Assembly: GCA_035530075.1 (NCBI GenBank)
Contig: DATKVM010000002.1
Location: forward strand, 103,348 to 167,347
Direction: 5' to 3'
Length of the DNA stretch: 64,000 bases
From: Patescibacteria group bacterium
GTDB lineage: Bacteria; Patescibacteriota; Microgenomatia; UM-FILTER-40-11
Positions 15,542-60,000 of this stretch are shown here, in pieces. The position numbers and the translations under genes were made by a program. The notes under the pieces are model-generated. The model was not told the DNA's origin. It was given only the letters and a program-made list of their open reading frames with translations, and did not search any database. Every line of letters begins with the position of its first letter. The first letter of the stretch is position 1.

Positions 15542-15691
15542 TCTTTAATCTTTACTGAGTCTTGAGCTTGATAAACCCGTTCCAAAATTTTCCCCCCGCA
15601 TTATGAAGAGAGATAGCAAAAGTTGTCAAGCAAAACAGACTTTCATCTGCTTGCATTTATTTACTTAAACGCCTTACCTTGAAAATCGCAA

Positions 15692-16426
15692 ATGGAAATA
15701 ATCCTTTACGACGCTCAGCCATTAACGGAAAAAACTACCCCCACTTTGAGGCAACCGCTCATGGTCCTTTGGCGGCAAGCTCGGTCAACCAGCAAGCGAG
15801 CCTTTCGCTTAAGCGGTTACATTTTAATATTGCTATCTTTCTTAATCTCAGTGGTAGTGGCCGGGCCAATAGTAATTCAGGAAGTCGGTTATCGGCTTAC
15901 TCAAAAGCCTTTTGCCTCTCAAAAGGAAGGGCCTTCGAATCCCGCCTTAAAAGAACAGCGCCAGCAAGCAGCGGAAGAAGCGCGTAACTACGGCGTGAGT
16001 CCCGACTTTTCCATTGTTATCCCCAAGATTGACGCTAAAGCAAAAATTATCCCTAATGTTAATCCCGCGGATGAGAGGGAATACAAGAACGCTCTCAAAG
16101 AAGGCGTTGCTCACGCCTCAGGAACCAAATTTCCCGGCCATAAAGGCACCATTTACCTTTTTGCCCACTCGACGAATTCGCCCATCAACATTGCCCGTTA
16201 CAATGCCGTCTTCTACCTTTTAAAAGAACTTCGCAAAGAGGATGAAATTATTATTTTTTTCGCCGGCCAAAAATATGTTTATCGGGTCACTGAGCGTTTT
16301 GTCACCGCCGCTGACGACACCAAATGGCTAACTAATCAAGAAAAAGAAGAACAGCTGGTTCTCCAAACTTGCTGGCCACCGGGAACCAGCCAAAAAAGAC
16401 TGCTGGTAATTGCCAAACCGGCCTAA
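15692..16426 (+). CDS. Sortase (class A/E-like transpeptidase)
   Basis: N-terminal TM anchor, catalytic His (IYLFAHST), TLxTC Cys motif (LVLQTCWPPGT) and a downstream Arg (KRLLV). Divergently adjacent to the LPPTG substrate gene. The true start may be the internal Met at about 15761. Confidence 0.7.
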   Translation: MEIILYDAQPLTEKTTPTLRQPLMVLWRQARSTSKRAFRLSGYILILLSFLISVVVAGPIVIQEVGYRLTQKPFASQKEGPSNPALKEQRQQAAEEARNYGVSPDFSIVIPKIDAKAKIIPNVNPADEREYKNALKEGVAHASGTKFPGHKGTIYLFAHSTNSPINIARYNAVFYLLKELRKEDEIIIFFAGQKYVYRVTERFVTAADDTKWLTNQEKEEQLVLQTCWPPGTSQKRLLVIAKPA

Positions 16427-16515
16427 AAATAAATTTCTGGGAGAGGCAAGAAGTTAAGCTGGCGCCCCCTGGCTATCCAAACTCTCCTTCCTGCCCCTCC
16501 CGAACATCGGTCATC

Positions 16516-17130
16516 CTATTCCTCCGGCTTGCCTTCATTGCAGTCCTGATTGCTATCGAAGTATTCCGTCCGGTGAGAGGGATAGCGGCTGTCCACTGCG
16601 GCTTCGGAAGCGAACTGCCACCAAGTCCCCATCCCGTCATAACGGAAGGTTTCTCCCTCAGGGAGACGAAAAATGCCGCATTCGTGGTTACCGTCCCACC
16701 ATTGGACAATTGCCGGCCCTTTCGTCTCGCCAGGGAATTGACCGGAAGAGACCGGGTGTGCCTCCTCGGCCGCCAGATTGACAACCGTCGGTGTTCCCTG
16801 GGCACTGATCGTTGAAGTCACTACCGGCGATGCGGTTCCTCCGGGCAGAAGGGATCCTGGACTGGGAAGAACCTTCACCGCCAAAGTCGCTGTTTGCATC
16901 AACAAGCGCCGTTCCTGCTCGATTGCCACCACCTGGCGACGACCGGAGATAGTCATAAAGAAAAGCGCGAGGGTAGCCAAGAGGAGAAAACCCACTATCG
17001 CCAGCCACCCACCGTTTTTCTTCAGCCGTTCCTTGTAGTCTGTCGACTCTCCCTCTCCTGGTTCATCCCTCACCGGGAATGGCGGCCTTCTCATGGACAC
17101 TTCTACTCTTCCTTTCCTAGCAGTAGCCAT
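16516..17130 (-). CDS. Pro-rich membrane-anchored protein, shorter paralog P2
   Basis: Arg-rich N-terminus, TM helix, P/S/T linker and a C-terminal W-rich segment (TWWQFASEAAVDSRY) matching TAWLFAGDEAAVREN of P1. Lies in the GC-rich island. Confidence 0.45.
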   Translation of the reverse strand: MATARKGRVEVSMRRPPFPVRDEPGEGESTDYKERLKKNGGWLAIVGFLLLATLALFFMTISGRRQVVAIEQERRLLMQTATLAVKVLPSPGSLLPGGTASPVVTSTISAQGTPTVVNLAAEEAHPVSSGQFPGETKGPAIVQWWDGNHECGIFRLPEGETFRYDGMGTWWQFASEAAVDSRYPSHRTEYFDSNQDCNEGKPEE

Positions 17131-17511
17131 TTTCTCTCGCCTTCCTTCAGGGCCAATGCCCCTTCAGTTTTACCGACGATAAGGACAACCGAATGTAAAA
17201 GAACTCGCTCCTGCCTCACTCCCGCTTAAAGAAGCGGCAAAAAAGCTTTCTCTAAAATTAAGGTAATGTTCTTTAAAAAAACTCGCAAAAACATAAAGGG
17301 AATAAAAAAATAAATGGTGAGAATAATTGAATCTCTATGAAAAGTAGTCTAGCGAGTAATCAAGCAATCTTTGATAAAAAGGAAGTAAGAGTTTAGTAAG
17401 AAGAATTTTGGGAGAGGTACCGCTACTTTGTCTGTTTTAGTTGAGATCTGAGCGATTTTTAGCAGAACTCGGTAGTTTCCCTCTCCCTAGACTTCACGGC
17501 ATATCCTCCTA

Positions 17512-18255
17512 TTAAGAAGTGGCGGCCACTACCAGCCAGCAACGATTGGCTTCGTCAGGCAAGAACACCTTGGTTATTTCCGCCTGGGGATCCCTCGTTC
17601 TTAACTCTCTTTCCTGCTTTCCCAAATCAGCCTCCACCACCGACCTTTCACCCGCGAAAAACCAAGCAATGCCCCCCCGATAGTCAGTGAAGGTAACCGT
17701 CGTTCCCGGAGCAATGGCAAAAATCCAAACCTCAGCGGTCCCTGCCCGATCGGTCCAGATTTGCCCTACCAGCCAGCAGTCTTCATCGGCATCACCTAAG
17801 GTAGTCTCTCCAAAAAGCTCGCCGCCGGGCTGGTTAGGGTTATGCCAAGCTACACCCCCCTTCTGGCACGTCTCTACTTCAACGGTTGGCTGACGAGGAA
17901 GAGGGGTCGTCGGGGGATTTGGCAACGGGGTGGGGGTAGCAAAAATAGAGGTCGGCGTGTTCGTGGCAGCGGGGCCACTGGTCACCCTGGTTGGTGGAAC
18001 TACCTGTGGCAAGAGTGTCGGAAAGGGAGTTGCCGTGATTACCCGTTCAACTACCCGGACGGGCCTTGGTCGCAAAGCAAAGTAAATCGCGAGTATCAAC
18101 AAGATTGCCGCAACCACGCTCAAGAGGATGGCGAGAAGGCGCAAGAAGCCCGCTCCCCATCGATCGTTATTTTTCGGCCGATTGCCTTTCGGCTCTCTCG
18201 GCGGATCGACTTCCGACCGCCCGGAGGTATTTCCTGCCGATCTCCCCTCTCCCAT
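17512..18255 (-). CDS. Pro-rich membrane-anchored protein with a Trp-rich C-terminal domain (paralog P3)
   Basis: TM helix, a PT-rich linker (TPTPLPNPPTTPLPRQPT), then WHNPNQPGGELFGETTLG...CWLVGQIWTD...IAWFFAGERSVV aligning with P1. GC-rich. Confidence 0.5.
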   Translation of the reverse strand: MGEGRSAGNTSGRSEVDPPREPKGNRPKNNDRWGAGFLRLLAILLSVVAAILLILAIYFALRPRPVRVVERVITATPFPTLLPQVVPPTRVTSGPAATNTPTSIFATPTPLPNPPTTPLPRQPTVEVETCQKGGVAWHNPNQPGGELFGETTLGDADEDCWLVGQIWTDRAGTAEVWIFAIAPGTTVTFTDYRGGIAWFFAGERSVVEADLGKQERELRTRDPQAEITKVFLPDEANRCWLVVAATS

Positions 18256-18458
18256 AGCTCACCTCACCTCTTCTGATGTGATATGCCTTTTTCAAAGAAC
18301 TCTTTGATAATTCCACCTCTAGGCGCTTTTACCCGGATGAAAGTACCAAAGTCTCTTAAGTCTTAGGCTAAGCAATCGGAGTCAACCGTAAATACGAATG
18401 GCGTAAGGAGAGCGTAAGCATCAGGTAAAAATGTGTTACAATTAAGAGGCAGCAGTCT

Positions 18459-20612
18459 ATGATTAAAGAAGACTTACCTTTTTCCCTCATTGAAATCCGA
18501 TTACCAAAAAACAGTGAGAAAACGCCCGAAGCCGCTCTTCAGCTGTTCGCTTCTTTCTCTTCTCTTCCCCGAAAACCGCTCTTCTCCCTTAAACCGCCAG
18601 TCAGTATCGGTTTTGAGATTGTTTCCATCGATCAGCTAATTCATTTCTTAATTGCTTGCCCGAAAGAGTGGCAAAATTATGTGGAAAGCCAAGTTTCCGC
18701 TCAATACCCGGAAAGCGTAATGACTCTCTTGCCCAAAGACTACTTGGCCGGTTATCTTCCTAATTTTACCCCCTCGGTCGGGCAACTAGTCCTTTCTTCC
18801 CCTTTTTATCTTCCCTTACGAACTTTTCGCGACTTAAAAGAAACTGATTTGCTTTCTTCCGTTTTAGGAGCAATGTCTAAATCTTCCCCCAACGATTTTA
18901 TAGTTTACCAAATATTAATCGCTCAAGCGGGTAATTGGCAGGGCTTTGCCCAAGGACTTATTAATAAAGGCATTCCCTCCGGCGAAGAAGGCAAAGTTCT
19001 TCCCCACCCCCAAGCTAAAAATATCACTTTAAAAATTGGCAGTAGCGGTTTCTGGACGGCAATTCGTCTAATTACTAACTCTGCTACTTCCCTTCGGACT
19101 TTGGCTAATACCTTTTCCAGTTATCAGGGTGAGGTTAATTCCTTAAGATTTAAAGAGCCCTACTCTTTTCAGCGGAAAAAATTAATCGATGCCTGCCTTA
19201 AGCGTTCTTTCGAGCTGGCACCAGCTAATCAAGTCCTTAATTTAGAAGAATTAGCTTCTTTATGGCATCCACCCGGGAAAATACTTTCCGGAATAAAGAA
19301 TATTGCTTGGACTCAAGAAGCAATGTCCGAACCCCCCCTTAATTTACCGGTAGCGGCCGATATCGATGAAGCGGATAAAAAAGAAATTAATTTTTTCGCC
19401 CGGGCCGAATTTAAAAACCGAATTGCCACTTTCGGGATAAAGAAAAAAGACCGGCGACGGCACATCTATATTATCGGCAAAAGCGGCACCGGCAAATCAA
19501 CTTTAATCGCTAATATGGCCATTAATGATTTGCGCAATAAAGAGGGCTTGGCGGTGATTGACCCTCATGGAGATTTAACGGAAATCCTTTTGGACTACAT
19601 CCCCTCTTTCCGCATTAACGAAACTTGCTTTCTTGATCCCAGTGATACGGAATATCCTTTCCACTTAAATCCGTTGGAAATTAAGAATCCCGCTCACAAA
19701 GAATTAGTCGCTTCGAATATAGTCGCGATCTTTTACAAGCTCTATTACTATTCTTGGGGGCCACGGCTGGAATACATTCTGCGCAACACGATTCTTACTT
19801 TACTGGAAACTCCCCAACCAACTTTAGTTCAAGTAATCGACCTTTTGGCCAATAAAAACTTCCGACGGCAGACAGTAGAAAAATTGGAAAATCCGGTTTT
19901 GAAAAATTTTTGGCTGAATGAATTTGAAAAGATGGACGAGAGGACCAAAGCGGAAGCTATTTCGCCCATTCTCAATAAAGTCGGCCAATTTACTTCTTCC
20001 CCGACGATTCGCCAGATTATTGGCTCCTATCATTCAACCGTTGATTTGGAAAAGATTATGAACGAAGGCAAGGTGCTTCTGGTCAACCTCTCTCAAGGAA
20101 AAATCGGTGAAGATAACGCCGCCTTACTGGGAGCAATGATTATTACTCAGCTTCAATTGGCGGCAATGAATCGTATCCGCATGCCTGAAGAAGAAAGGCG
20201 CGACTTTTATCTTTATGTCGATGAATTTCAGAATTTTGCCACCAGCGCATTTACTAAAATCCTTTCTGAGGCGCGCAAATATCGGCTCGATCTTTGCCTA
20301 GCCAACCAGTACATCGGCCAGCTAGGCGAAGAGTTACAAAAAGCAATTTTCGGCAACGCAGGAACGCTCGTTTCTTTTGTTATTGGCGCTCAGGACGCTA
20401 AACTCTTGACCGGAGAAATGGGCCAGGTTTATAAAGAAGAAGACCTGGTTTCCTTAGGGATGTACCAAGTCGCCTTGAAGCTTTGCATTGACAATTTAAC
20501 TTCGACTCCATTTTTAGCCAGCACTTTACCACTTCCCCGTTGCCGTAATCAAAACCGAGAGAAAGCGCTCCGAGTTTCTAAAGAGAAGCACACCGTTAAA
20601 AAGAAGGGTTAA
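18459..20612 (+). CDS. VirD4/TraD/TrwB-like (type IV coupling protein family) P-loop ATPase with an uncharacterised ~330-aa N-terminal domain
   Basis: Walker A IIGKSGTGKST is followed by AVIDPHGDL, as in TrwB (GTTGSGKS...VIVDPNGD). Walker B is YLYVDEFQNF. A conserved LANQYIGQL Gln block and GNAGTLVSF match TrwB/TraD. No N-terminal TM helices are evident. Confidence 0.6.
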   Translation: MIKEDLPFSLIEIRLPKNSEKTPEAALQLFASFSSLPRKPLFSLKPPVSIGFEIVSIDQLIHFLIACPKEWQNYVESQVSAQYPESVMTLLPKDYLAGYLPNFTPSVGQLVLSSPFYLPLRTFRDLKETDLLSSVLGAMSKSSPNDFIVYQILIAQAGNWQGFAQGLINKGIPSGEEGKVLPHPQAKNITLKIGSSGFWTAIRLITNSATSLRTLANTFSSYQGEVNSLRFKEPYSFQRKKLIDACLKRSFELAPANQVLNLEELASLWHPPGKILSGIKNIAWTQEAMSEPPLNLPVAADIDEADKKEINFFARAEFKNRIATFGIKKKDRRRHIYIIGKSGTGKSTLIANMAINDLRNKEGLAVIDPHGDLTEILLDYIPSFRINETCFLDPSDTEYPFHLNPLEIKNPAHKELVASNIVAIFYKLYYYSWGPRLEYILRNTILTLLETPQPTLVQVIDLLANKNFRRQTVEKLENPVLKNFWLNEFEKMDERTKAEAISPILNKVGQFTSSPTIRQIIGSYHSTVDLEKIMNEGKVLLVNLSQGKIGEDNAALLGAMIITQLQLAAMNRIRMPEEERRDFYLYVDEFQNFATSAFTKILSEARKYRLDLCLANQYIGQLGEELQKAIFGNAGTLVSFVIGAQDAKLLTGEMGQVYKEEDLVSLGMYQVALKLCIDNLTSTPFLASTLPLPRCRNQNREKALRVSKEKHTVKKKG

Positions 20613-23266: not shown

Positions 23267-23704
23267 ATGAGCCCAGAAAAATTAAAAGCCTTGGTGGTAG
23301 CTGATAATGAAAGCCATCGGGATTTGATAACTGCCATCTTAAAAGAGGAGTGTGGCATCCAAACCGTTCCTCTTCCTTCAATTCCAGGAGCAGGCAGACC
23401 GGATTTAGCCGTTTTAGGGCCATTTCGTATAACCAACCCTGAGGGAGTGAGGGAACTGGAAACCACAGTTAATAAAATCCGCCAAGCGTGGGAGGGGATA
23501 ACCATCCCCATCCTCCTCCTCTACCAAGATAGCCAGAACTTGGAAGCAGCTGCTCAAGCCGTGGGGGCGACCGAGTCCTTGCAGTGGAATGGCAACCCCG
23601 ACTCCTTGCAGGAGAAAGTTTTTACGCTTCTTGAATCAACTCAAACAAATTCTCAAATAGACAAGCCACCGTTACCGGTCCTACCCCACCCGGAACCGGA
23701 GTAA
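23267..23704 (+). CDS. Hypothetical protein with a degenerate CheY-like receiver fold (pseudo-receiver)
   Basis: KALVVADNE...PDLAVLGP...TIPILLL follows a receiver beta1/beta3/beta4 pattern, but the phospho-accepting Asp position is Gly. The gene overlaps the folD 3' end by about 80 nt, so its coding status is uncertain. Confidence 0.3.
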   Translation: MSPEKLKALVVADNESHRDLITAILKEECGIQTVPLPSIPGAGRPDLAVLGPFRITNPEGVRELETTVNKIRQAWEGITIPILLLYQDSQNLEAAAQAVGATESLQWNGNPDSLQEKVFTLLESTQTNSQIDKPPLPVLPHPEPE

Positions 23705-24488
23705 AGAAAGAAGCTTTCTCTAAAGCCTCTTTCCCCACATCACCCAAAACTCGGAATTTACCGCCTCGCAAAAGCTTAGAGATACCCACATCAATGACCA
23801 CCGCTCCCGGCCTGACCATCTCTTTCGTTACCAGCTCACTTACTCCGGTGGCGGAAATCAAAATGTTGGCCCGGCGCGTTATTTCTCCCAAATTGCCGGT
23901 GTGCGAGCGGCAAATAGTGACCGTGGCTCCCAAATCGGAAAGCACCACCGCCAAAGGTTTCCCGACAATAACCGACGCTCCGACAATAACAATATTCTCC
24001 CCCGCTAGCCATTTTTCCCCCTCAATTTCCCGGCTTCCCTCAAATTGCCCCAATCCCTCCCGGATAACCTCCAAAACTGCTTTCACCGTGGCCGGTAAAA
24101 GTCGGGGGTGACCGCTTAAAACGAGACCCAAATTAGTCGGGGTAAGGCAATCAACGTCCTTTTCCGGACTAATCGCCGCTAAAAGCGCTTCCTCGTTGAC
24201 TACCGGCAGTTGAACCATCACGCCGTGAACCGAAGGATCATTATTGGCCTCTCGAATATCGTTGATTATTTCCAGGGTCTGAGCCCCGTCGAAATGATGA
24301 ATCTCGTAGGTTACCCCAATCTTTTGGGCAAACTTAGCTTTGAGGGAAACATAAAGTTCAGTTTCTTTACTGTTGTCCGCCAAAATGGAGACTAACTTAG
24401 GAGTAATTCCTCGCTTCCTTAATTGCTCAACCCGCTCTTTTAAGTCCGCTTCCTTTCGACTGGCAAAGGCTTTTCCATCAAAAATCAT
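23622..24488 (-). CDS. folD: Bifunctional methylene-THF dehydrogenase / methenyl-THF cyclohydrolase
   Basis: Full-length FolD: catalytic Lys region (YVSLKAKFAQK), NAD(P) fold GENIVIVGASVIVGKPLA and PGGVGPVT at the C-terminus. Confidence 0.85.
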   Translation of the reverse strand: MIFDGKAFASRKEADLKERVEQLRKRGITPKLVSILADNSKETELYVSLKAKFAQKIGVTYEIHHFDGAQTLEIINDIREANNDPSVHGVMVQLPVVNEEALLAAISPEKDVDCLTPTNLGLVLSGHPRLLPATVKAVLEVIREGLGQFEGSREIEGEKWLAGENIVIVGASVIVGKPLAVVLSDLGATVTICRSHTGNLGEITRRANILISATGVSELVTKEMVRPGAVVIDVGISKLLRGGKFRVLGDVGKEALEKASFFTPVPGGVGPVTVACLFENLFELIQEA

Positions 24489-24768
24489 TATCCTTATAAT
24501 ACTACAAAATTCACTTTCGGGGAGAAAAGAAGTAAAATCAAGTAATTATGGCAAGAATAGAAATAAACTTTTCTGGCTTAAAGCCTAACGAAAAGATCCT
24601 TAATTGTCTCGAGTGTGAACAGCCCATCGAAGTTGTTCGGGTGGTCGGAGACCCCAATGACCCTAAAGACCACGTATTAGCCCTAGTAAGATCTCTGCGT
24701 GTAGAGGCAGGCCAATCTCCCGCTTGTCCTGCGAGAACGAATGGGCAACGTCATAGGACTGCTCGCCT

Positions 24769-26082
24769 TTAAGGAATCGGAAACTGCTGACAAAACGATT
24801 TGACTTCCCGCCCTATTTCTTGCAGCTTTTCTTCTTGAAGAACCACCTTTTTAAATCTCGCTCGGGCTTTCTGGTCTTCTTCTTTATTGGTCTCACCAAT
24901 CCCTGTCAAATCCATTTTTCGCAAATACTCAATTACCTGGTTAAACCACTTGCCAACTTTAATCATTTCTGCCTCTTTCATTCCTCTAGTAGTAACCGCT
25001 GGCGTCCCCAAGCGTAAGCCCGAAGGGTAATAAGGTGGCCGAAGATCTCCTGGAATAGTTTGTCGATTACATATAATTCCGGCTGCCTCGCTGCCCCAAG
25101 CCGCTGTCCAACCGTCAAGCCCCTTATTTCTCAAATCTATCCAAATCATATGGTTTTCACTCCCACCCCCTACCAGGTTAAAGCCATATTTGATTAGTTC
25201 CTGGGCTAAGACTCGTGAATTTTTAACTACTTGCTCCGCATATTGTCGAAAGGGCTTGCCCTGGGAGAAACGAAGAGCCACTGCTAATGCCCCAATTTGA
25301 TTCATATGCGGTCCACCTTGTGAGCCAGGAAAAACTGCTTTATCAATTTTTTCTGCCAATTGAGGATCTTTAGACAGACCTTTCTGGGTAACCATAATCA
25401 TCGCCCCCCTTGGCCCGCGCAAAGTTTTGTGAGTCGTCGTCATAATCAGATGGGCATCATCTTTAGGTGAAGGATGAGCTCCTCCAGCTACTAAACCGCC
25501 AATATGGGAGATATCGGCCACGAAAAAGGCTCCTACTTTTTCAGCAATTTCGGCGAAACGGTGGAAGTCAAAGATTTTAGTGTAAGCGGTGCCACCGCAA
25601 AAAATAACTTTCGGCCGCAGCTTCCAAGCCTGCTCTTCCAGTTCATCCCAATCTATCTCTCCTTCTTTAGTCAAACCATAATAATGAGCCTGGTAATATT
25701 TTGAGGTAACGGAAGCCTCCTGCCCCATCGATAAATGTCCACCCATAGAAAGGCGCTGGGATAAAATTATGTCTCCTACCTGACAAGTGGCTGCCAGGAT
25801 GGCCAAATTGGCCGGTGAGCCGGAATAGGGCTGAACATTGACATGCGGAACATTGAACAATTTCCTTGCTCTATCAATAGCCAAGTTTTCAATTTGATCA
25901 ACAATTGTATTCCCCTGGTAATAGCGCTTACCTGGATAGCCTTCGGCATATTTATGCATTAAAACCGACCCCACTGCCTGCCTAACTTCCGGATAGGTAT
26001 AGTTTTCCGACGGGATAAGCGTTAGAGTTTGCTCTTGGCGCTTTTCCTCTTGGGCAATGAGGTTAAAAATTGGGTCAGTCAT
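24769..26082 (-). CDS. glyA: Serine hydroxymethyltransferase
   Basis: LIPSENYTYPEVRQAVGS, a PLP-lysine region (TTTHKTLRGPRG) and about 60 aa of extra C-terminal tail. Confidence 0.9.
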   Translation of the reverse strand: MTDPIFNLIAQEEKRQEQTLTLIPSENYTYPEVRQAVGSVLMHKYAEGYPGKRYYQGNTIVDQIENLAIDRARKLFNVPHVNVQPYSGSPANLAILAATCQVGDIILSQRLSMGGHLSMGQEASVTSKYYQAHYYGLTKEGEIDWDELEEQAWKLRPKVIFCGGTAYTKIFDFHRFAEIAEKVGAFFVADISHIGGLVAGGAHPSPKDDAHLIMTTTHKTLRGPRGAMIMVTQKGLSKDPQLAEKIDKAVFPGSQGGPHMNQIGALAVALRFSQGKPFRQYAEQVVKNSRVLAQELIKYGFNLVGGGSENHMIWIDLRNKGLDGWTAAWGSEAAGIICNRQTIPGDLRPPYYPSGLRLGTPAVTTRGMKEAEMIKVGKWFNQVIEYLRKMDLTGIGETNKEEDQKARARFKKVVLQEEKLQEIGREVKSFCQQFPIP

Positions 26083-26091
26083 GCTTTCATT

Positions 26092-26808
26092 CTACCATTT
26101 CTGGTTAGAAACAGGTTTCTCTATAGAGGCAATAGCTTTTTTCTCAATAATTTTCGCAATTTTTTCTAGCGGTAATGAGCCGTCAATTTTTTCGAAACCT
26201 CTACCGATCATTTTTGAAATAAAAAGATATCCTTTCCTAACTCTGTGAAAATATTCTAAATCTTGATAATCGTGGACACAATCGCGTTTCTTCCGTTTAG
26301 ACTTTCTTTCTCGCCCGACTTCAGGGGCAACATCAAGATAAAAAACCACGTCGGGGCAAACTCCCGCCACGGCAATTTGGTTTATTCTCCAAATGTCTTT
26401 CCACCCGAGACCACGAGCAAATCCTTGATAGGCTAAACTAGAAAAGAATGAACGTTCAGAAACAACAATTGCTCCTCTTTCTAAAGCCGGACGGAGTACG
26501 ACGGCAATGGCCTGACAACGGGAAGCGGCCAAAAGAAAAGCTTCAGAGTAAGGAACCAACCCCTCTCCTGACCGTGAGTGACTAATAATCACATCTCTCA
26601 CCTGTTCGCTTTTTTCGGTTCCGCCTGGTTCGTGCGTGTAAACTATTTCTCTGTCCGGATACCTCTCTTTAAGGAATTCATGAAGTAACTTTGCCTGTAT
26701 GCTTTTACCACATCCACCGATTCCTTCAAATACGAAGTATTTACCAGGTAATCTGTGCCCTAATAATTTATACATTTTTTTAGGCATTTCATCTCTTGAA
26801 AAAATCAA
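26092..26808 (-). CDS. tmk: Thymidylate kinase
   Basis: P-loop FVFEGIGGCGKSIQAKLL, DRY-like region and lid. 238 aa. Confidence 0.8.
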   Translation of the reverse strand: MIFSRDEMPKKMYKLLGHRLPGKYFVFEGIGGCGKSIQAKLLHEFLKERYPDREIVYTHEPGGTEKSEQVRDVIISHSRSGEGLVPYSEAFLLAASRCQAIAVVLRPALERGAIVVSERSFFSSLAYQGFARGLGWKDIWRINQIAVAGVCPDVVFYLDVAPEVGRERKSKRKKRDCVHDYQDLEYFHRVRKGYLFISKMIGRGFEKIDGSLPLEKIAKIIEKKAIASIEKPVSNQKW

Positions 26809-28300
26809 CTTTACCCGGGCTGGTGACCGCTATGTATTTGCCCCAGTCAGGATACCTTTTATTAAAAAGCTGCCACATCAGGTAAGTAATCTCGCGGTAA
26901 GAAAAATGGCCTTGAGGTTTAGTCCGAAGCTCGGCAATATATTGGAGTTCCCAAGGAGACATTTTCATTAAAAATCTTCTTCTCGTCGCTTGAGGGAGGA
27001 TATACTCGCCCACGCCCGGATATTTTTTTTCAATCTTTCGGTAGGTTTTCCAAACTTCTTCCATCGCTTTCTCATACACCCTTGCCATCCCCACCTCTTT
27101 TACTTCCTTTGGCATATCGTACCCATACTCCCCTGTCACCGGCTTTAAAATGTGAATACAGTTGCGGTGGCGATGCAAATCGCGAAAGCCGCCGACATCC
27201 ATGCAAATATCAAAAATGAGGGTGGCCGTGTCTGCTTCTCGTAAAACCTGATCATGCTCACCCCGAAGCTCAAACGCCAAACCAATCGCTTTCTTAATTA
27301 ATTTTTTATTGGCTTTTTTAATTGCCCGCAGTAACTGGCCGTAAGAATACGGCGTGGCTTTGTAAAACATCGTGGTCACCAAATCAATCTGTGGGTCAAC
27401 TCCCTCAAACATTTCTACGCCACGCTTGCCATCCGGCTCCCTGAGTCCCCTTAATTTTCCCACCAACGCCGCCATTTCCCCATACACATTCCTGGGATAA
27501 TCTTTCTTCTCCGCATATTTAACCAAAGTCGGCAAGGCAATATTTTTCCCGGCAATCGCCACTTTCAGCTCCGCTTTTTCCTCGGCCGAAAGCCAGTTCA
27601 TCCGCTCAATCTTCGCCAGAGACACATTAAACGCCTCTTTTTGGCAGATGGCTTTTTGCAATTCTTTCCCGATTTCCCGGCATTCCAGCAAAGGCGAGGA
27701 TAAAAACTTGGTGATTGTCCGCTCCCAAGTCCGGCCGGAAGCAAGGACACCCATTGATTTTGGTCCGGCGCAAGGAAGAAGATAGCGGCTGACATCATTG
27801 GCTCTGGCTCTTACCGTCCGAAGGTAAGCTTCATCATCCATCTCTTTAGGTTTTTCCGAAGCATACTTTTGGGAATAAAGTTCGGCCACCGCTTGAGTCA
27901 GTTGTGAATAAAGCCCAACCATTTCCCTCACGGTTTTCTGAAAAAGCGCTCGGGTTCTTTTATCTTTTTTTATTTCCGGCGGAAGAATAAAAACCGCCTT
28001 AGAATAATCAACATAACGGGTCGAGCGCGATTGGGCGTCAATCAACTGGTCATCAAGAAGAATATGTCGGGCGACCATGGAAATATTCTCAAAAATGACC
28101 ATTACATGAGCCAAATCGGCAATACTTGAGTGACCGTAATTGAAGTACATGGAGTTATAAAACTTCCCCGCCCCCTCTTCGGTCAACTCTAAAACCCAAT
28201 CTTGGTAGGACTTGTAAGTGGGCGTCCGGGAAAACTTGGCGGCGGCATAGCCCCCCGGTTCCGGCATGACCCCAAGAACCGAAAAAATCTTTCTTCTCAT
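26789..28300 (-). CDS. thyX: Flavin-dependent thymidylate synthase ThyX, long fused/pseudo-dimeric form
   Basis: The first half aligns to the ThyX core (GHSSIADLAHVMVIFENISMVARH...SRSTRY vs [29 protein letters not shown]...SGRYS) but has a degenerate RHR. The second half carries RDLHRHRNCIHI. At 503 aa it is about twice canonical ThyX length. The genomic context (dcd, tmk, glyA, folD) supports the call. Confidence 0.55.
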   Translation of the reverse strand: MRRKIFSVLGVMPEPGGYAAAKFSRTPTYKSYQDWVLELTEEGAGKFYNSMYFNYGHSSIADLAHVMVIFENISMVARHILLDDQLIDAQSRSTRYVDYSKAVFILPPEIKKDKRTRALFQKTVREMVGLYSQLTQAVAELYSQKYASEKPKEMDDEAYLRTVRARANDVSRYLLPCAGPKSMGVLASGRTWERTITKFLSSPLLECREIGKELQKAICQKEAFNVSLAKIERMNWLSAEEKAELKVAIAGKNIALPTLVKYAEKKDYPRNVYGEMAALVGKLRGLREPDGKRGVEMFEGVDPQIDLVTTMFYKATPYSYGQLLRAIKKANKKLIKKAIGLAFELRGEHDQVLREADTATLIFDICMDVGGFRDLHRHRNCIHILKPVTGEYGYDMPKEVKEVGMARVYEKAMEEVWKTYRKIEKKYPGVGEYILPQATRRRFLMKMSPWELQYIAELRTKPQGHFSYREITYLMWQLFNKRYPDWGKYIAVTSPGKVDFFKR

Positions 28301-28303
28301 CGC

Positions 28304-28945
28304 CTACGATAAATTAATTTTGAACCGGCGCTTTAATTCTTTTACCTTTCCTTCGCGAATCAATTTCGTCTCCTGCTGACTTTTTTCCCTAAATATCCCC
28401 ACCCGAGAACCATTTTCCGCGAAACGGCTTTTGTGGGGTTTGACATAATTATTCAGCTGATGGAAGACCAGTTGGCAAAAGCGCTCTCCTGGATAGATCC
28501 TGATGACTTGTGAAGGCGTATTATTTCTGATGGGGATAATCAGATTGCCTTTGTAACCAGCATCGACGATCCCGCTCAAATCAACCGAGAGTCCCCGCCG
28601 GTTAACCGAAGAGCGCGGATAGAGAATGCCCATTAGGTCAGCTGGCAGTGAAATTTTTTCCAAAGTATTAACCACGACAAACTCTCTAGGTAAAAGCTCA
28701 AAATGCTGGCCCACCTCTAGAGTCATTGTTTCAAAATGTTGCCTATCAACTCCAGAAAGATAATCGATATTCAAGACCGTCCGCCCTTTTTCCGTCATTT
28801 CCCAAGATTTGGGGATCATAAAGTCAAAGCCCAGGCGCAAATCAACTGAATGAGTTTGAATTTGAAATTCATCAAGAGAAGGATAAAAAGAAAGCTCATC
28901 CCGGCTAATCCTTTGTAAAATATCTTTCTTCGTCAAAACTGACAT
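28304..28945 (-). CDS. dcd: dCTP deaminase
   Basis: IQTHSVDLRLG and GIVDAGYKGNLIIPIRN (the dUTPase-superfamily GxxDxGYxG motif), plus CQLVF. Confidence 0.8.
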   Translation of the reverse strand: MSVLTKKDILQRISRDELSFYPSLDEFQIQTHSVDLRLGFDFMIPKSWEMTEKGRTVLNIDYLSGVDRQHFETMTLEVGQHFELLPREFVVVNTLEKISLPADLMGILYPRSSVNRRGLSVDLSGIVDAGYKGNLIIPIRNNTPSQVIRIYPGERFCQLVFHQLNNYVKPHKSRFAENGSRVGIFREKSQQETKLIREGKVKELKRRFKINLS

Positions 28946-29009: not shown

Positions 29010-30254
29010 TTAGAGGATAAGAATTATCTTGTAAAGTGGCACTTTGAGGTTGTTTTTAACGATTTCCCTGTGGCTCCAGTACTCCTGGAAGCTGTGAGTT
29101 TGAGCCACTTTCACCACTTCCTCATCCAGGACAACTACAAATTTTTGGCCGGGACGCAAGTGCCGGAAATCAATCCCCTCTGCCTTCAGTCTTTCAACTA
29201 AAATTTTAGTAATGACATCGCTTAGTCTAACGCCATTTTCCTCATTAACCCAATTAGTGTAACCGCAAACAGTAAGCCAATTGGCCACTAGTTGCTCAGC
29301 CGATTTCCAAAACCAGCCCTTTTTGGGAATGACTACCTCAATTAATGTTTTCGGCTGGGTTTTTTCCTGGCTTAGTTTAGGGGTAACTACAACCACCGGC
29401 GGCGGGGTTTCAAACTCTCCCCCTTCTACCTCCGGTTTTATAACCTGTTCCGGAGCCGGAGTAGGATAAAGAGTTTGACTAATCGGGTTTTGGGTTAATT
29501 TCCTTTCTTCCTCCCTGGGAGAAGACGAAAGCAAAGCTTTCGTACCGGCAATAAGCGAACCCAAAACTAAAACGGCGCTGACACCATGGGCCAGTCGTTT
29601 ACGAAAGCTTTTCGCTTGGTTCCGCTTTTTCTCTTCCCCTGCTTCCCTCTGGACAACTGCCTGGGCTATTCCTTGGGCGATTACTAGCCCTTCAGGTGTT
29701 TGTCGCAACTGGTCCAGGCGGTGGATTTGCTTTGCTCGGGAACAAAGAGGTCCACCGTTAGCCGGCTGTCGATCAAAAACCCGACCGAAAATTCTCTTTA
29801 TCCAACCAGGTTTAGATGGGAGCCGGCTTTCTTCTTCGGCTTCTTCTTTTAGGGAAGTCGGCTTCTCAGAAGCTGCTGGAGACAAGGGTAATTGGGCGCT
29901 CTTAAGCTTGGCTATCTCTTCCTCCAGTTGAATAATCCTTTGGTCACGATCTTGGATTGCCTTACTCTCAGCTGAAATTTGGCCTTGTAGGGTTCTCGCC
30001 TCTTCCTCTCTCAGTGCCAATTCATTTTGTAGGGCTTGGTTTCGTGTCAAAAGAAATTCATTGGCCACTTTCAGCTCAATATCTATTACCGCTTCAATTG
30101 AATCCGAACCTACCTGCGCAAGCTTCTCCGCTAGCAACGAAAGATATTCCGGAGAAAGAGGAATGTCTCTTTCTCCGAGGAATAGGGGTTTCTCGGCTGA
30201 CATAAGAATAGAACCTTGCGTGACTGGGTTTAACATAACCCAAAAAAGAAGCAA
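29010..30254 (-). CDS. Bitopic coiled-coil membrane protein, paralog family B (shorter)
   Basis: N-terminal coiled coil, one TM segment (VSAVLVLGSLIAGTKALL), a Pro-rich linker and the family-defining GWFWKSAEQLVANWL...TNWVNEENGV...HLRPGQKFVV C-terminal domain. Confidence 0.5.
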   Translation of the reverse strand: MLLFWVMLNPVTQGSILMSAEKPLFLGERDIPLSPEYLSLLAEKLAQVGSDSIEAVIDIELKVANEFLLTRNQALQNELALREEEARTLQGQISAESKAIQDRDQRIIQLEEEIAKLKSAQLPLSPAASEKPTSLKEEAEEESRLPSKPGWIKRIFGRVFDRQPANGGPLCSRAKQIHRLDQLRQTPEGLVIAQGIAQAVVQREAGEEKKRNQAKSFRKRLAHGVSAVLVLGSLIAGTKALLSSSPREEERKLTQNPISQTLYPTPAPEQVIKPEVEGGEFETPPPVVVVTPKLSQEKTQPKTLIEVVIPKKGWFWKSAEQLVANWLTVCGYTNWVNEENGVRLSDVITKILVERLKAEGIDFRHLRPGQKFVVVLDEEVVKVAQTHSFQEYWSHREIVKNNLKVPLYKIILIL

Positions 30255-30641: not shown

Positions 30642-32456
30642 CTATTTGTAAAATTCCTCGTAGATTGGCCGATAATCTTCCACCGAACCGCTCATATAAA
30701 TTCTCCAAAGCAAATCACGGTTTTCGTCATTAGTAACATAATCACGCATTCGAGTTATCCCCGGCGGAATCATTCCTAAATCACGATTTTCTTTTCTCGA
30801 TAACTTCCAGGCGGCATTAATAATCGCGTCCGCTTTAGAGGCACCCGTTTCTTCGTTGACCCAGACAATCTGCCCACTGTCCTCCATAACTTTCGTAAAT
30901 GGTTCTCTCGCCGAAGCCCAAAAATCGCTCCCTTCTTTAACCTTAATTTCCATGCCTAAAAGATCATCGAGGGTTTTAATTTTTACCTTTACCTCCGGTG
31001 AGGCAGCCACAGCCGCAGTTGTTTCCGCGGCCACCGGCTGAACGACACGGACTTCTCGGCTCATCCCTGAACCGCCTAAAACGGCGGCCAAGGCCAGGGC
31101 AGCTAAAAAGACCTGTGCTCGCGGCCGAAGCCTCAAGCGCTCTCCTAAACCTTGATTTCTTTCTTGTTCTTCGGCGTTATTCCCCCGACTCAGTCTCTCT
31201 CCCGGACTTAGTCTTTGCCACCAATTACTGACGGCCTGAGAGACTCTCTCCCTCCAAGTAGCTTTTACTGGAACTGCCTCCGCGTCTAAAAGCCGATCAA
31301 TTTCTCTTCTTCTGGCTTCTTTTTCCTCAGGAGTTTCTTCTTTCTCAATTCCTCGGCCGAAAACCTCTTTAATCGCCTGCTGTTTTAACTCCGCGGCCTT
31401 CGCTGCCTGAGCCGCCTTAATTTCCTGCTGTTTTTCATCTAAGGCTTTCAAGGCGGCCGTTCCTTCGGCCGTCAGAGGACCAACCCTGGCCACCGGTTCA
31501 ACTAGTGGTTGCGGTTGCTCTTCCCTGAGAGGTTGCTCTTCTGCCAGTCGGGCGCTTGGAGTCACTACTTCTCCTTTGGCAATTTTAATTAACTGCTCAA
31601 TCACTCGAGGATTTACTTCTGATTCTGCCTGAGCTTTTTCCCCCTCGGCCACTTTCGTTAACTTCTTCTCAATCTCTGCTAACCTTTTTTGTTCGGCGGC
31701 CAGCTCTTCCTCGAGATGAAGGCTTCCTCCTTTCCTAATCTGCTCCTCAAGTCCAGCGATGGTTGTTGCTGCTTCCGCTTTATTCGCTTCCAAAACCCCC
31801 CTCGTCTCTCGCGGCATTTCGGTCTCCGGCGGCCTTGCCTCGGTTCTCGGTCTCATTGCCGCTTTTAATTCTGGTGGCATCAAATCAGGAATCTGCTGGT
31901 TAACCTTCGCGAGCCAAGATATCTCCCTCCCTAGTTCTTTCCCTAGTGGGCCAGCATTAGCCATTCCCCCTTTTTCATCAATTTGCTCCCTTAACTCTTC
32001 TATTGCTCCCTCAATTTCTTTTTTAGTCGCTTCTAATTTGGGAGTCTCCTCAAAATATCTCTGCCATTGCCCAAGAGTTTGTAAACTCTCCTTTGTTGAA
32101 GAAACTCTTGCTTCTACCTCTCTCAGGCGGTTTTGTTCGGCATTCAGCTCTTCTGCTAAATGAGAACTGCCTCCTTTTCCCATCTGCTCCTTAATCCCTG
32201 CAATCGTTACTTCCGCTTCTACTTTATCTTCTCTCAAAGTTCTCCCCACTGGAGCAACTCCCTCAAAGCCCATTACTCCTTGCAAGCTTGCCCTTTCTGC
32301 TTCAATAATGGGCCGCCAAGGCTTTGTTCCCTTCTCGGCACTCTCAACCGAAAATTCCGCTGGATTCGTATCTCTTGATCCGCCTTCGTTTTCTCCCGGC
32401 ATTTTTCCCCTAGACAAACTCTCGCTTTGTAAATAGACCCCACAGAAGATTAACAT
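30642..32456 (-). CDS. Bitopic coiled-coil membrane protein, paralog family C, with a repeated KGGS(S/L)HL unit
   Basis: 604 aa with two EQ(M/I).KGGS.HL.EEL.AEQ.RL units and a block shared with 7416..9428 (LGQWQRYFEETPKLEATKKEIEGAIEELREQIDEKGGMANAGPL). WWQRLSP precedes the TM helix AQVFLAALALAAVLGG. The C-terminus has a FW...W.NEETG domain. The true start may be Met19 (MPGENEGG). Confidence 0.6.
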   Translation of the reverse strand: MLIFCGVYLQSESLSRGKMPGENEGGSRDTNPAEFSVESAEKGTKPWRPIIEAERASLQGVMGFEGVAPVGRTLREDKVEAEVTIAGIKEQMGKGGSSHLAEELNAEQNRLREVEARVSSTKESLQTLGQWQRYFEETPKLEATKKEIEGAIEELREQIDEKGGMANAGPLGKELGREISWLAKVNQQIPDLMPPELKAAMRPRTEARPPETEMPRETRGVLEANKAEAATTIAGLEEQIRKGGSLHLEEELAAEQKRLAEIEKKLTKVAEGEKAQAESEVNPRVIEQLIKIAKGEVVTPSARLAEEQPLREEQPQPLVEPVARVGPLTAEGTAALKALDEKQQEIKAAQAAKAAELKQQAIKEVFGRGIEKEETPEEKEARRREIDRLLDAEAVPVKATWRERVSQAVSNWWQRLSPGERLSRGNNAEEQERNQGLGERLRLRPRAQVFLAALALAAVLGGSGMSREVRVVQPVAAETTAAVAASPEVKVKIKTLDDLLGMEIKVKEGSDFWASAREPFTKVMEDSGQIVWVNEETGASKADAIINAAWKLSRKENRDLGMIPPGITRMRDYVTNDENRDLLWRIYMSGSVEDYRPIYEEFYK

Positions 32457-39326: not shown

Positions 39327-40379
39327 TTATTTTACCCCTCCCCTAACCCTCACTTTCTGGAGTAAGTTTTCGTCCGCCAACACTTTGGCGCAACCTTTCA
39401 CCGTCACCGTCAAGGGGTCCTCGACCACCATGCAGGGCATTTTCGTGGTTTCCGTCACCAGCAAATCCAACCCGGGCAATGAAGTTATCCCACCAGCCAG
39501 ATATATCCCTTTTTGAGCAATATCACCCAAAAGTTCGGGAGGAGTTTCTTCAATAATATCGGAAATTGCTCCTACCAGCTGATTAAGAATGGGAGCCAAG
39601 GCCTCCCGCACTTCGGCGACATTGACTCGCAGCGATCGGGGTAAACCAGTGGCCAGATCTCGACCCCGAACGACCATTAATCGCTCATCCCGACCTTTAA
39701 TTTCCCAAGCCGAACCTAAACCAATTTTTAAATTTTCAGCCGTCGGCAAGCCAATGAGAATTGAATATTTCAAGCGCAAAAAGTTAATAATCGCTTCATC
39801 CATCTCATCCCCGGCTACCCGGAGAGATTTGTTAATGACAATTCCCCCCAAGGAAATGACCGCCAATTCAGTCGTGCCACCCCCAATATTGACGATTAGC
39901 GCCCCGGCGGCCTCAAAAATCGGCAAATCGGCCCCGATAGCCGTCGCCATTGGCTCCTCAACCAAATAAGCCACCCGAGCCCCAGCGGCAAAGGCGGCAT
40001 CCTGAACCGCTTTCTTCTCCACATCAGTCACCCCTGCTGGGATACTGATCGCCACCTTTGGTTTAGGAATTTTGATATTCAAGCCATGGCTTTGATGAAG
40101 TTTTTTAAAGTAATAAGAAAGCATTCCTAGGGTCGCATCAAAATCGGAAATAACCCCGTCTTGTAAAGGAGGAATCGCCTCTAGCTGCCCTGGCGTTCGG
40201 CCAATCATTTTTTTAGCCTCGCTACCAACGGCAACTATCTCTTTGCTCTTTTTATGGCGAGCAACCACGGTTGGCTCTCGCACCGCTACCCCTTTGCCTA
40301 AAACCATAATCCGGGTATTGGTCGTTCCCATATCCACCCCTAAATCATAAGAAACCAGTCTGAAAAATCTATCCAGCAC
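39327..40379 (-). CDS. mreB: Rod shape-determining protein MreB
   Basis: FRLVSYDLGVDMGTTNTRIMVLGKG... carries the full actin-fold motifs (phosphate 1/2, adenosine). Confidence 0.85.
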   Translation of the reverse strand: MLDRFFRLVSYDLGVDMGTTNTRIMVLGKGVAVREPTVVARHKKSKEIVAVGSEAKKMIGRTPGQLEAIPPLQDGVISDFDATLGMLSYYFKKLHQSHGLNIKIPKPKVAISIPAGVTDVEKKAVQDAAFAAGARVAYLVEEPMATAIGADLPIFEAAGALIVNIGGGTTELAVISLGGIVINKSLRVAGDEMDEAIINFLRLKYSILIGLPTAENLKIGLGSAWEIKGRDERLMVVRGRDLATGLPRSLRVNVAEVREALAPILNQLVGAISDIIEETPPELLGDIAQKGIYLAGGITSLPGLDLLVTETTKMPCMVVEDPLTVTVKGCAKVLADENLLQKVRVRGGVK

Positions 40380-59767: not shown

Positions 59768-60000
59768 GATATCTTTTGATAAATAAAGTCCATAGTATGT
59801 TCTATTCTCAAAATCTTTCTTAAAATCATTATAAGTGCTAAATACTCTAATTTGCAATTTCTTATTGTCCTAAATGTGTTTCAGGTAAGAAATCGCCAAA
59901 ATTGTAGATTCTGAAAAGATAAGTATACATTTTAACTTAGTTCGACAAGAGAAATTTTTCTTCTTGCATTAGTTTGGTTGACATCGTTACAATTCTATAG

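What the first reader, a model, noticed from the sequence alone, without database searches (positions are those of the whole stretch)
26092..28945. Compact thymidylate module dcd-thyX-tmk next to glyA and folD, with an unusually long pseudo-dimeric ThyX
Five consecutive or nearby minus-strand genes cover dCTP to dUMP (Dcd), dUMP to dTMP (ThyX), dTMP to dTDP (Tmk) and one-carbon supply (GlyA, FolD). The ThyX candidate is 503 aa, about twice normal, and reads as a fused tandem. The first half has the ThyX core but RHR is replaced by ARHILLDD with the SxRY retained. The second half carries RHRNCIHI. A fused heterodimer-like ThyX would be a notable enzyme-architecture variant.
Basis: partly seen in the sequence, partly recalled or inferred. 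Interest (0 to 1): 0.5.

Follow-up and report, generated by a model that had tools for sequence, protein, structure and literature searches.

The report
Chlamydia-type tandem ThyX in thymidylate operon
A candidate-phyla (Patescibacteria) bacterium keeps its thymidine-making genes side by side, and its double-length ThyX enzyme is real but belongs to a widespread, already annotated family that includes the studied Chlamydia enzyme, so the finding is mostly ordinary.

Summary
On the minus strand, dcd (28304-28945), a 503-aa ThyX (26789-28300), tmk, glyA and folD lie in a row. The first four are separated by only 1-9 nt. Each ThyX half passes the Pfam Thy1 threshold on its own.

The enzyme is not unusual. 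The exact protein is already in NCBI as [quoted passage not shown]. Full-length relatives occur in at least 567 species genomes. The 529-aa Chlamydia trachomatis ThyX, which has been purified and assayed, is a full-length homolog. A 2009 paper already noted the domain duplication.

The RHR position is D83-D84-Q85, not "ARH".

The useful result is a strict split of the catalytic residues across 254 family members. The N-half keeps the equivalents of T. maritima S30, T55, S88, R90, Y91, R147 and R165 and never has RHR. The C-half keeps R78-H79-R80 and R174 and lacks the others.

In canonical ThyX these two groups reach one active site from different subunits. I therefore infer that a dimer of tandem chains forms a pseudo-tetramer with two complete active sites instead of four. 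This is inferred, not shown, and no tandem ThyX structure is in the PDB.

Verdict: new member of a known kind, with modest interest.

The parts
28304..28945 (-). dcd: dCTP deaminase family (dUTPase superfamily), 213 aa. It supplies the uracil deoxynucleotide. Whether it is mono- or bifunctional is unresolved.
   Evidence: PF22769 at 2.8e-31; TIGR02274 109.9 bits against a cutoff of 92.8. The best PDB match is 4XJC at 62 bits. E. coli Dcd scores 47.9 bits and M. tuberculosis 2QXX 46.5 bits.
26789..28300 (-). thyX: tandem (two-Thy1-domain) flavin-dependent thymidylate synthase, 503 aa.
   Evidence: Thy1 at 6.8e-29 with 2 stretches. Identical to NCBI 'FAD-dependent thymidylate synthase [Patescibacteria group bacterium]'. 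AF2 model pLDDT 84.4 and pTM 0.85. Foldseek hits are all ThyX-family chains (ThyX plus the ThyX-like PolB).
27500..28300 (-). ThyX N-half plus linker (residues 1-267). This Thy1 domain keeps the S30, T55, E58, S88, R90, Y91, R147 and R165 equivalents and lacks RHR.
   Evidence: Thy1 E=1.3e-15 when scanned alone. hhalign against T. maritima ThyX covers residues 12-201 at E=2.8e-4.
28046..28054 (-). D83-D84-Q85, the N-half position equivalent to R78-H79-R80. It is degenerate.
   Evidence: Alignments. None of 254 N-halves contains RHR. Position 83 is D in 250 of 254.
28013..28024 (-). S93-T94-R95-Y96, the N-half equivalent of S88-G89-R90-Y91.
   Evidence: S in 254/254, R in 254/254 and Y in 253/254.
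27785..27787 (-). R172, the N-half equivalent of T. maritima R147.
   Evidence: R in 254/254. Aligned as DVxRYLLP against EVARIVLP.
27731..27733 (-). R190, the N-half equivalent of T. maritima R165.
   Evidence: R in 253/254.
26792..27499 (-). ThyX C-half (residues 268-503). This Thy1 domain keeps RHR and R174 and lacks the S88, R90, Y91 and R147 equivalents.
   Evidence: Thy1 E=2.2e-12 when scanned alone. hhalign against T. maritima ThyX covers residues 7-213 at E=9.2e-6.
27164..27172 (-). R377-H378-R379, the C-half RHR.
   Evidence: Each residue is present in 254/254.
26924..26926 (-). R459, the C-half equivalent of T. maritima R174 (the dUMP-activating arginine).
   Evidence: R in 254/254. 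The role of R174 is described in PMC8316439.
26092..26787 (-). tmk: dTMP kinase, 231 aa from the ATG. An alternative TTG at 26808 would give 238 aa.
   Evidence: TIGR00041 145.5 bits against a cutoff of 83.25. The junction reads TGA-a-ATG. Public gene calls give 231 aa.
24769..26082 (-). glyA: serine hydroxymethyltransferase, which makes 5,10-methylene-THF.
   Evidence: PF00464 at 2.7e-137; NF000586 491.6 bits against a cutoff of 335.
23622..24488 (-). folD: methylene-THF dehydrogenase/cyclohydrolase.
   Evidence: PF00763 at 3.4e-28 and PF02882 at 1.5e-46. NCBIfam FolD models score about 218 bits, below their equivalog cutoffs.

Best explanation
This is the thymidylate-synthesis gene cluster of a Patescibacteria genome. 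Dcd provides the uracil deoxynucleotide. ThyX methylates dUMP to dTMP using methylene-THF made by GlyA. Tmk phosphorylates dTMP. FolD interconverts one-carbon folates.

The ThyX is a member of the long, tandem-domain ('Chlamydia-type') ThyX family. It is a single chain made of two diverged Thy1 domains joined by a linker of about 65 residues. Neither half has a complete catalytic set:
- The N-half supplies the equivalents of T. maritima S30, T55, E58 (flavin contacts), S88, R90, Y91 (methylene-transfer loop), R147 and R165.
- The C-half supplies R78-H79-R80 (flavin N1 stabilisation and phosphate binding) and R174 (dUMP activation).

In canonical homotetrameric ThyX each active site is built from three subunits. 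The R174 group and the S88/R90/Y91 group come from different subunits. I therefore infer that one tandem chain replaces two subunits. I also infer that two chains form a pseudo-tetramer, and that this assembly has two complete composite active sites and two vestigial ones, instead of four.

Shown here: the gene identities, the tandem Thy1 architecture, the strict residue split, and homology to the Chlamydia enzyme.

Inferred: the oligomeric state, which subunit role each half plays, and the count of two active sites.

The confidence of 0.75 is a blend. It is about 0.9 that this is a functional tandem-family thymidylate synthase in a thymidylate operon, and about 0.65 that the assembly has two composite sites.
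For: - Gene identities come, and both halves pass Thy1 alone.
- Each half aligns over nearly the whole T. maritima ThyX. The reference sequence was verified as identical to PDB 1KQ4/1O26.
- In 254 long ThyX sequences (24-87% identity), RHR is in 0 N-halves and 254 C-halves. SxR[YF] is in 254 N-halves and, as a chance string anywhere, in 5 C-halves.
- The S93, R95, R172, R377, H378, R379 and R459 columns are 254/254. Y96 and R190 are 253/254.
- In PBCV-1 ThyX, Gln75 and Arg182 (= R174) come from monomer A, and Ser88-Arg90 come from monomer B (PMC3498832).
- In H. pylori ThyX, A:Arg197 sits with C:Arg109 and C:Tyr110 around one FAD (PMC4632503).
- Residue roles are described.
- The AF2 model has pTM 0.85, which suggests a fixed packing of the two halves.
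- The window protein aligns with C. pneumoniae ThyX at E=6e-38 across both halves.
- C. trachomatis ThyX is 529 aa and lies in the same family. It was purified and active in NADPH-oxidase assays, and a kinetic study of it exists (Griffin 2005, cited). Chlamydia rely on FDTS alone for dTMP.
- The thyX-(tmk)-glyA-folD synteny is kept in related Patescibacteria.
Against: - No coordinates or multimer prediction were available. The pseudo-tetramer and the two-site count therefore rest on sequence logic.
- The subunit origin of R78/R80, R147 and R165 in canonical ThyX could not be confirmed from the papers I could read.
- The N-half position equivalent to R174 is still K or R in 242 of 254 sequences. 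A residual role for the second pocket, for example in nucleotide or NADPH binding, is not excluded.
- The H53 equivalent (H57) is His in only 117 of 254 sequences and Asp in the Chlamydia branch.
- The protein scores only 30.5 bits against the TIGR02170 equivalog cutoff of 87.9.
- The activity of this particular protein is untested.
Confidence: 0.75

Rival explanations
1. The tandem ThyX still has four functional active sites per pseudo-tetramer, or one per Thy1 domain. The substituted residues in each half would be functionally replaced by other side chains.
For: The N-half position equivalent to R174 is K or R in 242/254 sequences. In the Chlamydia branch the position equivalent to R80 is R in 139/254. 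Both halves keep the Thy1 fold.
Against: The would-be second site lacks R78 (D in 250/254) and H79. On the partner side it lacks S88, R90, Y91 and R147 (Q or E in 245/254). S88, R90, Y91 and R174 are reported as catalytically important.
Confidence: 0.12
2. The protein is not a thymidylate synthase but a ThyX-like enzyme with another substrate or chemistry. Examples would be a UMP/dUMP C5-methylase of the PolB type or a hydroxymethylase.
For: PolB (4P5B) appears among the Foldseek hits. The score is below the TIGR02170 equivalog cutoff.
Against: - The gene sits between dcd and tmk and next to glyA.
- All dUMP-, flavin- and catalysis-linked residues are present once per chain and invariant.
- Homologous Chlamydia enzymes are the sole thymidylate synthases of their genomes and have been assayed.
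- No thyA lies in the window.
Confidence: 0.05
3. The 503-aa ORF is an artefact: a mis-assembly, or two adjacent thyX genes joined by a sequencing error.
For: None was found.
Against: The identical protein is encoded on 10 contigs from several ENA and JGI samples. Another 254 homologs of 470-620 aa have the same two-domain layout, some from complete genomes of cultured organisms.
Confidence: 0.01

Closest known systems
Chlamydia-type long ThyX (C. trachomatis 529 aa; C. pneumoniae CPn_0746, 531 aa, formerly 'UPF0159')
   Same: - It has two Thy1 domains in one chain.
- It shows full-length homology (BLASTP E=6e-38 over residues 35-490).
- It has the identical split of invariant residues: SxRY, R147 and R165 in the N-half, and RHR and R174 in the C-half.
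- It is annotated as FAD-dependent thymidylate synthase.
   Different: - Identity is only about 25%.
- The Chlamydia branch has Asp in place of the H53-equivalent His, a His-rich linker, and a C-terminal extension of about 20 residues.
- The window protein has S91 where most members have Glu (the E86 equivalent).
- The genomic context in Chlamydia was not examined.
Long ThyX of Chloroflexi, Acidobacteriota, Nitrospirae and others
   Same: It has the same architecture and residue pattern, with 34-45% identity over the full length. The duplication in Chloroflexi was noted by Valas & Bourne 2009 (PMC3224940).
   Different: In those lineages dcd, tmk, glyA and folD are not within 6 kb of thyX in 78 of 80 loci, by tblastn at 1e-8. 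The compact module is specific to the patescibacterial relatives.
Canonical single-domain ThyX (T. maritima TM0449, PDB 1O26; M. tuberculosis 3GWC)
   Same: It has the same fold (Foldseek E=1e-6 to 3GWC, TM about 0.56 on the target). The same set of catalytic residues is present.
   Different: The canonical enzyme is a homotetramer of about 220-250-aa chains. Each chain carries the contiguous RHRxxSxxxxSxR motif, and the assembly has four equivalent sites. Here the motif is divided between two fused, diverged domains.

Membership tests
ThyX / Thy1 (Pfam PF02511) | Significant match to the Thy1 profile above the gathering score | tested here: met
   Whole protein 101.5 bits. N-half alone 58.2 bits and C-half alone 47.6 bits, against a cutoff of 24.8.
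ThyX / Thy1 (Pfam PF02511) | ThyX fold | tested here: met
   An AF2 model (pLDDT 84.4) matches only ThyX-family chains (ThyX plus the ThyX-like PolB) in the PDB. The best is 3GWC at E=1e-6.
Canonical ThyX (NCBIfam TIGR02170 equivalog) | Score above the equivalog cutoff | tested here: not met
   30.5 bits against a cutoff of 87.9. The model is built on single-domain enzymes.
Canonical ThyX | Contiguous ThyX motif RHRxxSxxxxSxR within one domain | tested here: not met
   The N-half has DDQ...STRY. The C-half has RHR with no SxRY. The motif is complete only across the two halves.
Canonical ThyX | Homotetramer with four active sites at three-subunit interfaces; FAD bound; dUMP to dTMP activity | not testable with these tools
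   No multimer modelling, coordinates or biochemistry were available.
Long tandem (Chlamydia-type) ThyX | Two Thy1 domains in one chain of about 490-550 aa, with full-length homology to the Chlamydia enzymes | tested here: met
   BLASTP against C. pneumoniae P0121 gives E=6e-38 over both halves. The C. trachomatis cluster is 529 aa.
Long tandem (Chlamydia-type) ThyX | Family-invariant residues (S24, S59, S93, R95, Y96, R172 and R190 in the N-half; R377, H378, R379, R459, H465 and R469 in the C-half) | tested here: met
   All are present in the window protein. Each column is conserved in 252-254 of 254 sequences.
dCTP deaminase (TIGR02274) | Score above the equivalog cutoff | tested here: met
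   109.9 bits against 92.8.
Bifunctional dCTP deaminase:dUTPase | Clearly closer to characterised bifunctional enzymes than to monofunctional ones | tested here: inconclusive
   4XJC scores 62 bits, E. coli Dcd 47.9 bits and M. tuberculosis 2QXX 46.5 bits. No diagnostic residues were evaluated.
dTMP kinase (TIGR00041) | Score above the equivalog cutoff | tested here: met
   145.5 bits against 83.25.
Serine hydroxymethyltransferase (NF000586) | Score above the cutoff | tested here: met
   491.6 bits against 335.
FolD | Both THF dehydrogenase/cyclohydrolase domains present | tested here: met
   PF00763 98.7 bits and PF02882 158 bits. NCBIfam equivalog cutoffs are not reached, at about 218 against 396-421.

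The most novel reading that the evidence does not exclude
The long ThyX family, including this protein and the Chlamydia drug-target enzyme, is an obligate pseudo-heterotetramer. After an ancient internal duplication, the two halves lost complementary parts of the catalytic apparatus. A dimer of chains therefore carries only two composite active sites, and the two vestigial pockets may have been re-used, for example for regulation or NADPH binding. I found no solved structure and no explicit description of this split in the searchable literature. Griffin et al. 2005 could not be read and may already discuss it.
Probability: 0.6. Interest if true: 0.4.

Novelty: new member of a known kind. Interest (0 to 1): 0.3.

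Why it matters
For this window, the result mainly closes the question. The 'unusual' enzyme is a routine member of a large, annotated family, and the gene cluster is a conventional, if tidy, thymidylate and one-carbon operon in a reduced-genome bacterium.

The wider point is modest. ThyX is pursued as an antibacterial target, and Chlamydia ThyX belongs to this tandem family. If the tandem enzymes have two composite sites and two degenerate pockets, their stoichiometry, cooperativity and inhibitor-binding surface would differ from the T. maritima, M. tuberculosis and PBCV-1 homotetramers used as structural templates. The strict 254/254 residue split gives a clear, testable design for mutagenesis and structure determination.

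Tried and rejected
- Direct BLASTP of the N-half against the C-half found nothing. Homology between the halves shows only at profile level (E=7.3e-5).
- My recalled 'C. trachomatis ThyX' sequence was not an exact database entry. It turned out to be 96% identical to the C. pneumoniae protein. Only the verified database sequences were used after that.
- The AFDB Foldseek library was unavailable.
- Model coordinates are not exposed.
- Leduc 2004 (PMC409905) and Griffin 2005 could not be read.
- Literature searches for a description of the tandem architecture returned only Valas & Bourne 2009.
- I looked for a riboswitch in the 280-nt glyA-folD gap. Rfam finds only three tRNAs in the window.
- Promoter and terminator scans are at chance level.
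- I tested whether dcd-thyX-tmk adjacency is general to the long-ThyX family. It is not.
- The mono- versus bifunctional status of the Dcd was not resolved.
Full report
**1. Observation**

The region contains five co-directional minus-strand ORFs:
- 28304-28945 (213 aa)
- 26789-28300 (503 aa)
- 26092-26808 (238 aa from a TTG)
- 24769-26082 (437 aa)
- 23622-24488 (288 aa)

Pfam and NCBIfam identify them as follows:
- dCTP deaminase: PF22769 at 2.8e-31; TIGR02274 109.9 bits against a cutoff of 92.8.
- ThyX: PF02511 at 6.8e-29, with two matched stretches.
- dTMP kinase: TIGR00041 145.5 bits against a cutoff of 83.25.
- Serine hydroxymethyltransferase: PF00464 at 2.7e-137.
- FolD: both domains present.

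The intergenic gaps are 3, 1, 9 and 280 nt. The thyX-tmk junction reads AAG AGA TGA a ATG. Public gene calls start tmk at that ATG, giving 231 aa.

**2. The tandem ThyX**

Scanned separately, residues 1-268 give Thy1 E=1.3e-15 and residues 269-503 give E=2.2e-12. Both are well above the gathering score.

The halves are too diverged for BLASTP to relate them. Profiles built from 254 family members do relate them to T. maritima ThyX:
- The N-half aligns to residues 12-201 at E=2.8e-4.
- The C-half aligns to residues 7-213 at E=9.2e-6.
- The two halves align to each other at E=7.3e-5.

The T. maritima reference sequence was checked as identical to PDB 1KQ4/1O26.

An AlphaFold2 model from a 17-sequence alignment has mean pLDDT 84.4 and pTM 0.85. 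Its only significant PDB matches are ThyX-family chains of about 200-250 aa. These are M. tuberculosis 3GWC (E=1e-6), C. glutamicum, T. thermophilus, T. maritima, H. pylori, PBCV-1 and the ThyX-like PolB. No tandem ThyX has been solved.

**3. Correction of the motif reading**

The alignment to C. glutamicum ThyX and both hhalign runs place D83-D84-Q85 at the R78-H79-R80 position. They place S93-T94-R95-Y96 at S88-G89-R90-Y91. In the C-half, R377-H378-R379 is the RHR, and no SxRY follows it.

**4. It is a large, known family**

- The exact protein is in NCBI as 'FAD-dependent thymidylate synthase [Patescibacteria group bacterium]'. The first search returned 664 relatives, and those listed are nearly all 490-560 aa at full coverage.
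They include Acidobacteriota such as the cultured Silvibacterium bohemicum and a complete Acidobacteriaceae genome. They also include Tumebacillus flagellatus, Chloroflexi, Nitrospirae, Verrucomicrobia and Patescibacteria.
- I recalled that Chlamydia ThyX is about 530 aa. My recalled sequence was not exact. Used as a query, it retrieved the real entries: C. pneumoniae CPn_0746 (531 aa, 96% identical to my recollection), C. abortus, C. avium, Chlamydiifrater, Clavichlamydia and many environmental Chlamydiales. All are 528-550 aa.
- The cluster of P0130 holds the 529-aa C. trachomatis, C. muridarum and C. suis enzymes.
- The window protein aligns with C. pneumoniae ThyX at E=6e-38 over residues 35-490, which spans both halves.
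- C. trachomatis ThyX has been cloned, purified and used in NADPH-oxidase inhibitor assays (PMC3498832). A kinetic study exists (Griffin et al. 2005, listed). Chlamydia depend on FDTS alone for dTMP (PMC6514825).

The tandem form is therefore a working thymidylate synthase in at least one lineage.

**5. The residue split**

I aligned 254 long ThyX sequences with 24-87% identity to the query.

N-half, with T. maritima numbering in brackets:

| Residue | Equivalent | Conservation |
|---|---|---|
| S24 | S30 | 253/254 |
| S59 | T55 | 254/254 |
| D/E62 | E58 | 254/254 |
| S93 | S88 | 254/254 |
| R95 | R90 | 254/254 |
| Y96 | Y91 | 253/254 |
| R172 | R147 | 254/254 |
| R190 | R165 | 253/254 |

The RHR positions in the N-half are D (250/254), a variable residue, and R/Q/P. 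No N-half contains the string RHR.

C-half:

| Residue | Equivalent | Conservation |
|---|---|---|
| R373 | R74 | 251/254 |
| R377, H378, R379 | R78, H79, R80 | 254/254 each |
| R459 | R174 | 254/254 |

In the C-half, the positions of S88, R90 and Y91 are variable. R147 is replaced by Q or E in 245 of 254 sequences. Only 5 of 254 C-halves contain an SxR[YF] string anywhere.

Each chain thus carries exactly one full set of the canonical catalytic residues, divided between its halves. This holds from Patescibacteria to Chlamydiae (alignment A2), which argues for a single ancient duplication followed by complementary loss.

**6. Mechanistic inference**

[quoted passage not shown] The reported residue roles are:
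- R78 stabilises the reduced flavin. H53 comes from a third monomer and contacts Y91 and N85. S30 and S88 contact flavin O4 (PMC11940539).
- R174 activates dUMP. S88, R90 and Y91 assist methylene transfer (PMC8316439).

In PBCV-1 ThyX, Gln75 and Arg182 (= R174) come from monomer A and Ser88-Arg90 from monomer B. In H. pylori ThyX, A:Arg197 is paired with C:Arg109 and C:Tyr110 around A:FAD.

The long ThyX keeps the 'monomer A' residues only in the C-half. It keeps the 'partner' and 'third monomer' residues only in the N-half.

The simplest reading is that a dimer of tandem chains reproduces the tetramer. Each of two sites would be formed by one C-half and two N-halves. The reciprocal two pockets would be catalytically dead.

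This part is inference. I had no coordinates or multimer modelling, and the subunit origin of R78/R80, R147 and R165 was not confirmed in the texts I could read. The N-half position equivalent to R174 remains K or R in 242/254 sequences, so a residual ligand-binding role for the vestigial pocket cannot be excluded.

**7. Context**

The window is ordinary patescibacterial chromosome. It carries recR, dnaX, rseP-like, rpsB-tsf-frr, topA, dprA, PBP2-mreC-mreB, def-fmt, nusG-rplKAJL and three tRNAs. No thyA, dut or DHFR domain was found in the 50 ORFs scanned.

Within related Patescibacteria, the order topA ... X-thyX-(tmk)-glyA-folD ... rpsB is conserved, but the gene in slot X differs:
- Here it is Dcd.
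- In a genome with a 71%-identical ThyX, it is dCMP deaminase plus a small kinase plus a MazG-like pyrophosphatase.
- In a Shapirobacteria genome, it is a short 122-aa DCD.

This supports the idea that slot X supplies dUMP. It does not prove that this Dcd is bifunctional, because PDB comparisons do not discriminate.

In 78 of 80 distant loci, none of dcd, tmk, glyA or folD lies within 6 kb of thyX. The compact module is therefore a lineage feature, not a property of long ThyX.

No Rfam element lies in the 280-nt glyA-folD gap. Promoter-like and terminator-like sites do not exceed chance.

**8. Verdict**

The finding is real, and its pathway reading is essentially right. The 'unusually long' ThyX is a new member of a known, widespread and already annotated family whose Chlamydia representative has been studied biochemically.

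The one point a specialist might value is the strict complementary split of the catalytic residues, and the pseudo-tetramer with two active sites that it implies. It is untested and may already be known from literature I could not access.

Interest is 0.3. Novelty is 'new member of a known kind'.

Noticed in passing
L084/L085 3634-5023 and L086 3135-3503, against window 28304-28945: The gene slot just upstream of thyX is swapped among related Patescibacteria. Here it holds Dcd. In a genome with a 71%-identical ThyX it holds dCMP deaminase, a 189-aa AAA_17/18 kinase and a 109-aa MazG-like protein. In a Shapirobacteria genome it holds a truncated-looking 122-aa DCD. These look like alternative routes to dUMP plugged into the same operon.
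   Followed up: partly
window 24489-24768: A 280-nt gap lies between glyA and folD. It has no Rfam hit. A 74-aa ORF sits on the opposite strand (24548-24772). The relative L084 has a 148-aa gene without Pfam hits at this position.
   Followed up: partly
window 29010-30254 and 30642-32456: Two large ORFs without Pfam hits lie just upstream of dcd. They share a C-terminal domain of about 65 residues (BLASTP E=1e-5; motif W-VNEE-G), so they are probably paralogous surface or secreted proteins. Public gene calls use shorter starts (397 and 586 aa).
   Followed up: partly
window 45415-46835: def and fmt (peptide deformylase and methionyl-tRNA formyltransferase) lie about 20 kb from folD. Together with ThyX they may be the main consumers of the small folate one-carbon pool in this reduced genome.
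   Followed up: no
window 39327-40379 and 58763-59857: There are two MreB paralogs (PF06723 at 7e-116 and 2e-134). The first lies next to mreC and a PBP2-type transpeptidase.
   Followed up: no
window 7416-9428, 9707-12775 and 60001-62295: Three very large ORFs (670, 1022 and 764 aa) have no Pfam match at 1e-5. This is typical of CPR genomes, and they were not examined further.
   Followed up: no
window 14924-20612: A DUF11 protein, a sortase and a TrwB/VirD4-like coupling ATPase (717 aa) are clustered. This may be a surface-appendage or DNA-uptake locus.
   Followed up: no
ThyX residue 57 (window 28130-28132): The equivalent of T. maritima H53, the folate- and flavin-stacking histidine, is His in 117 and Asp in 137 of 254 long ThyX sequences. 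The Asp form marks the Chlamydia/Verrucomicrobia branch, which hints at a difference in folate handling within the family.
   Followed up: partly
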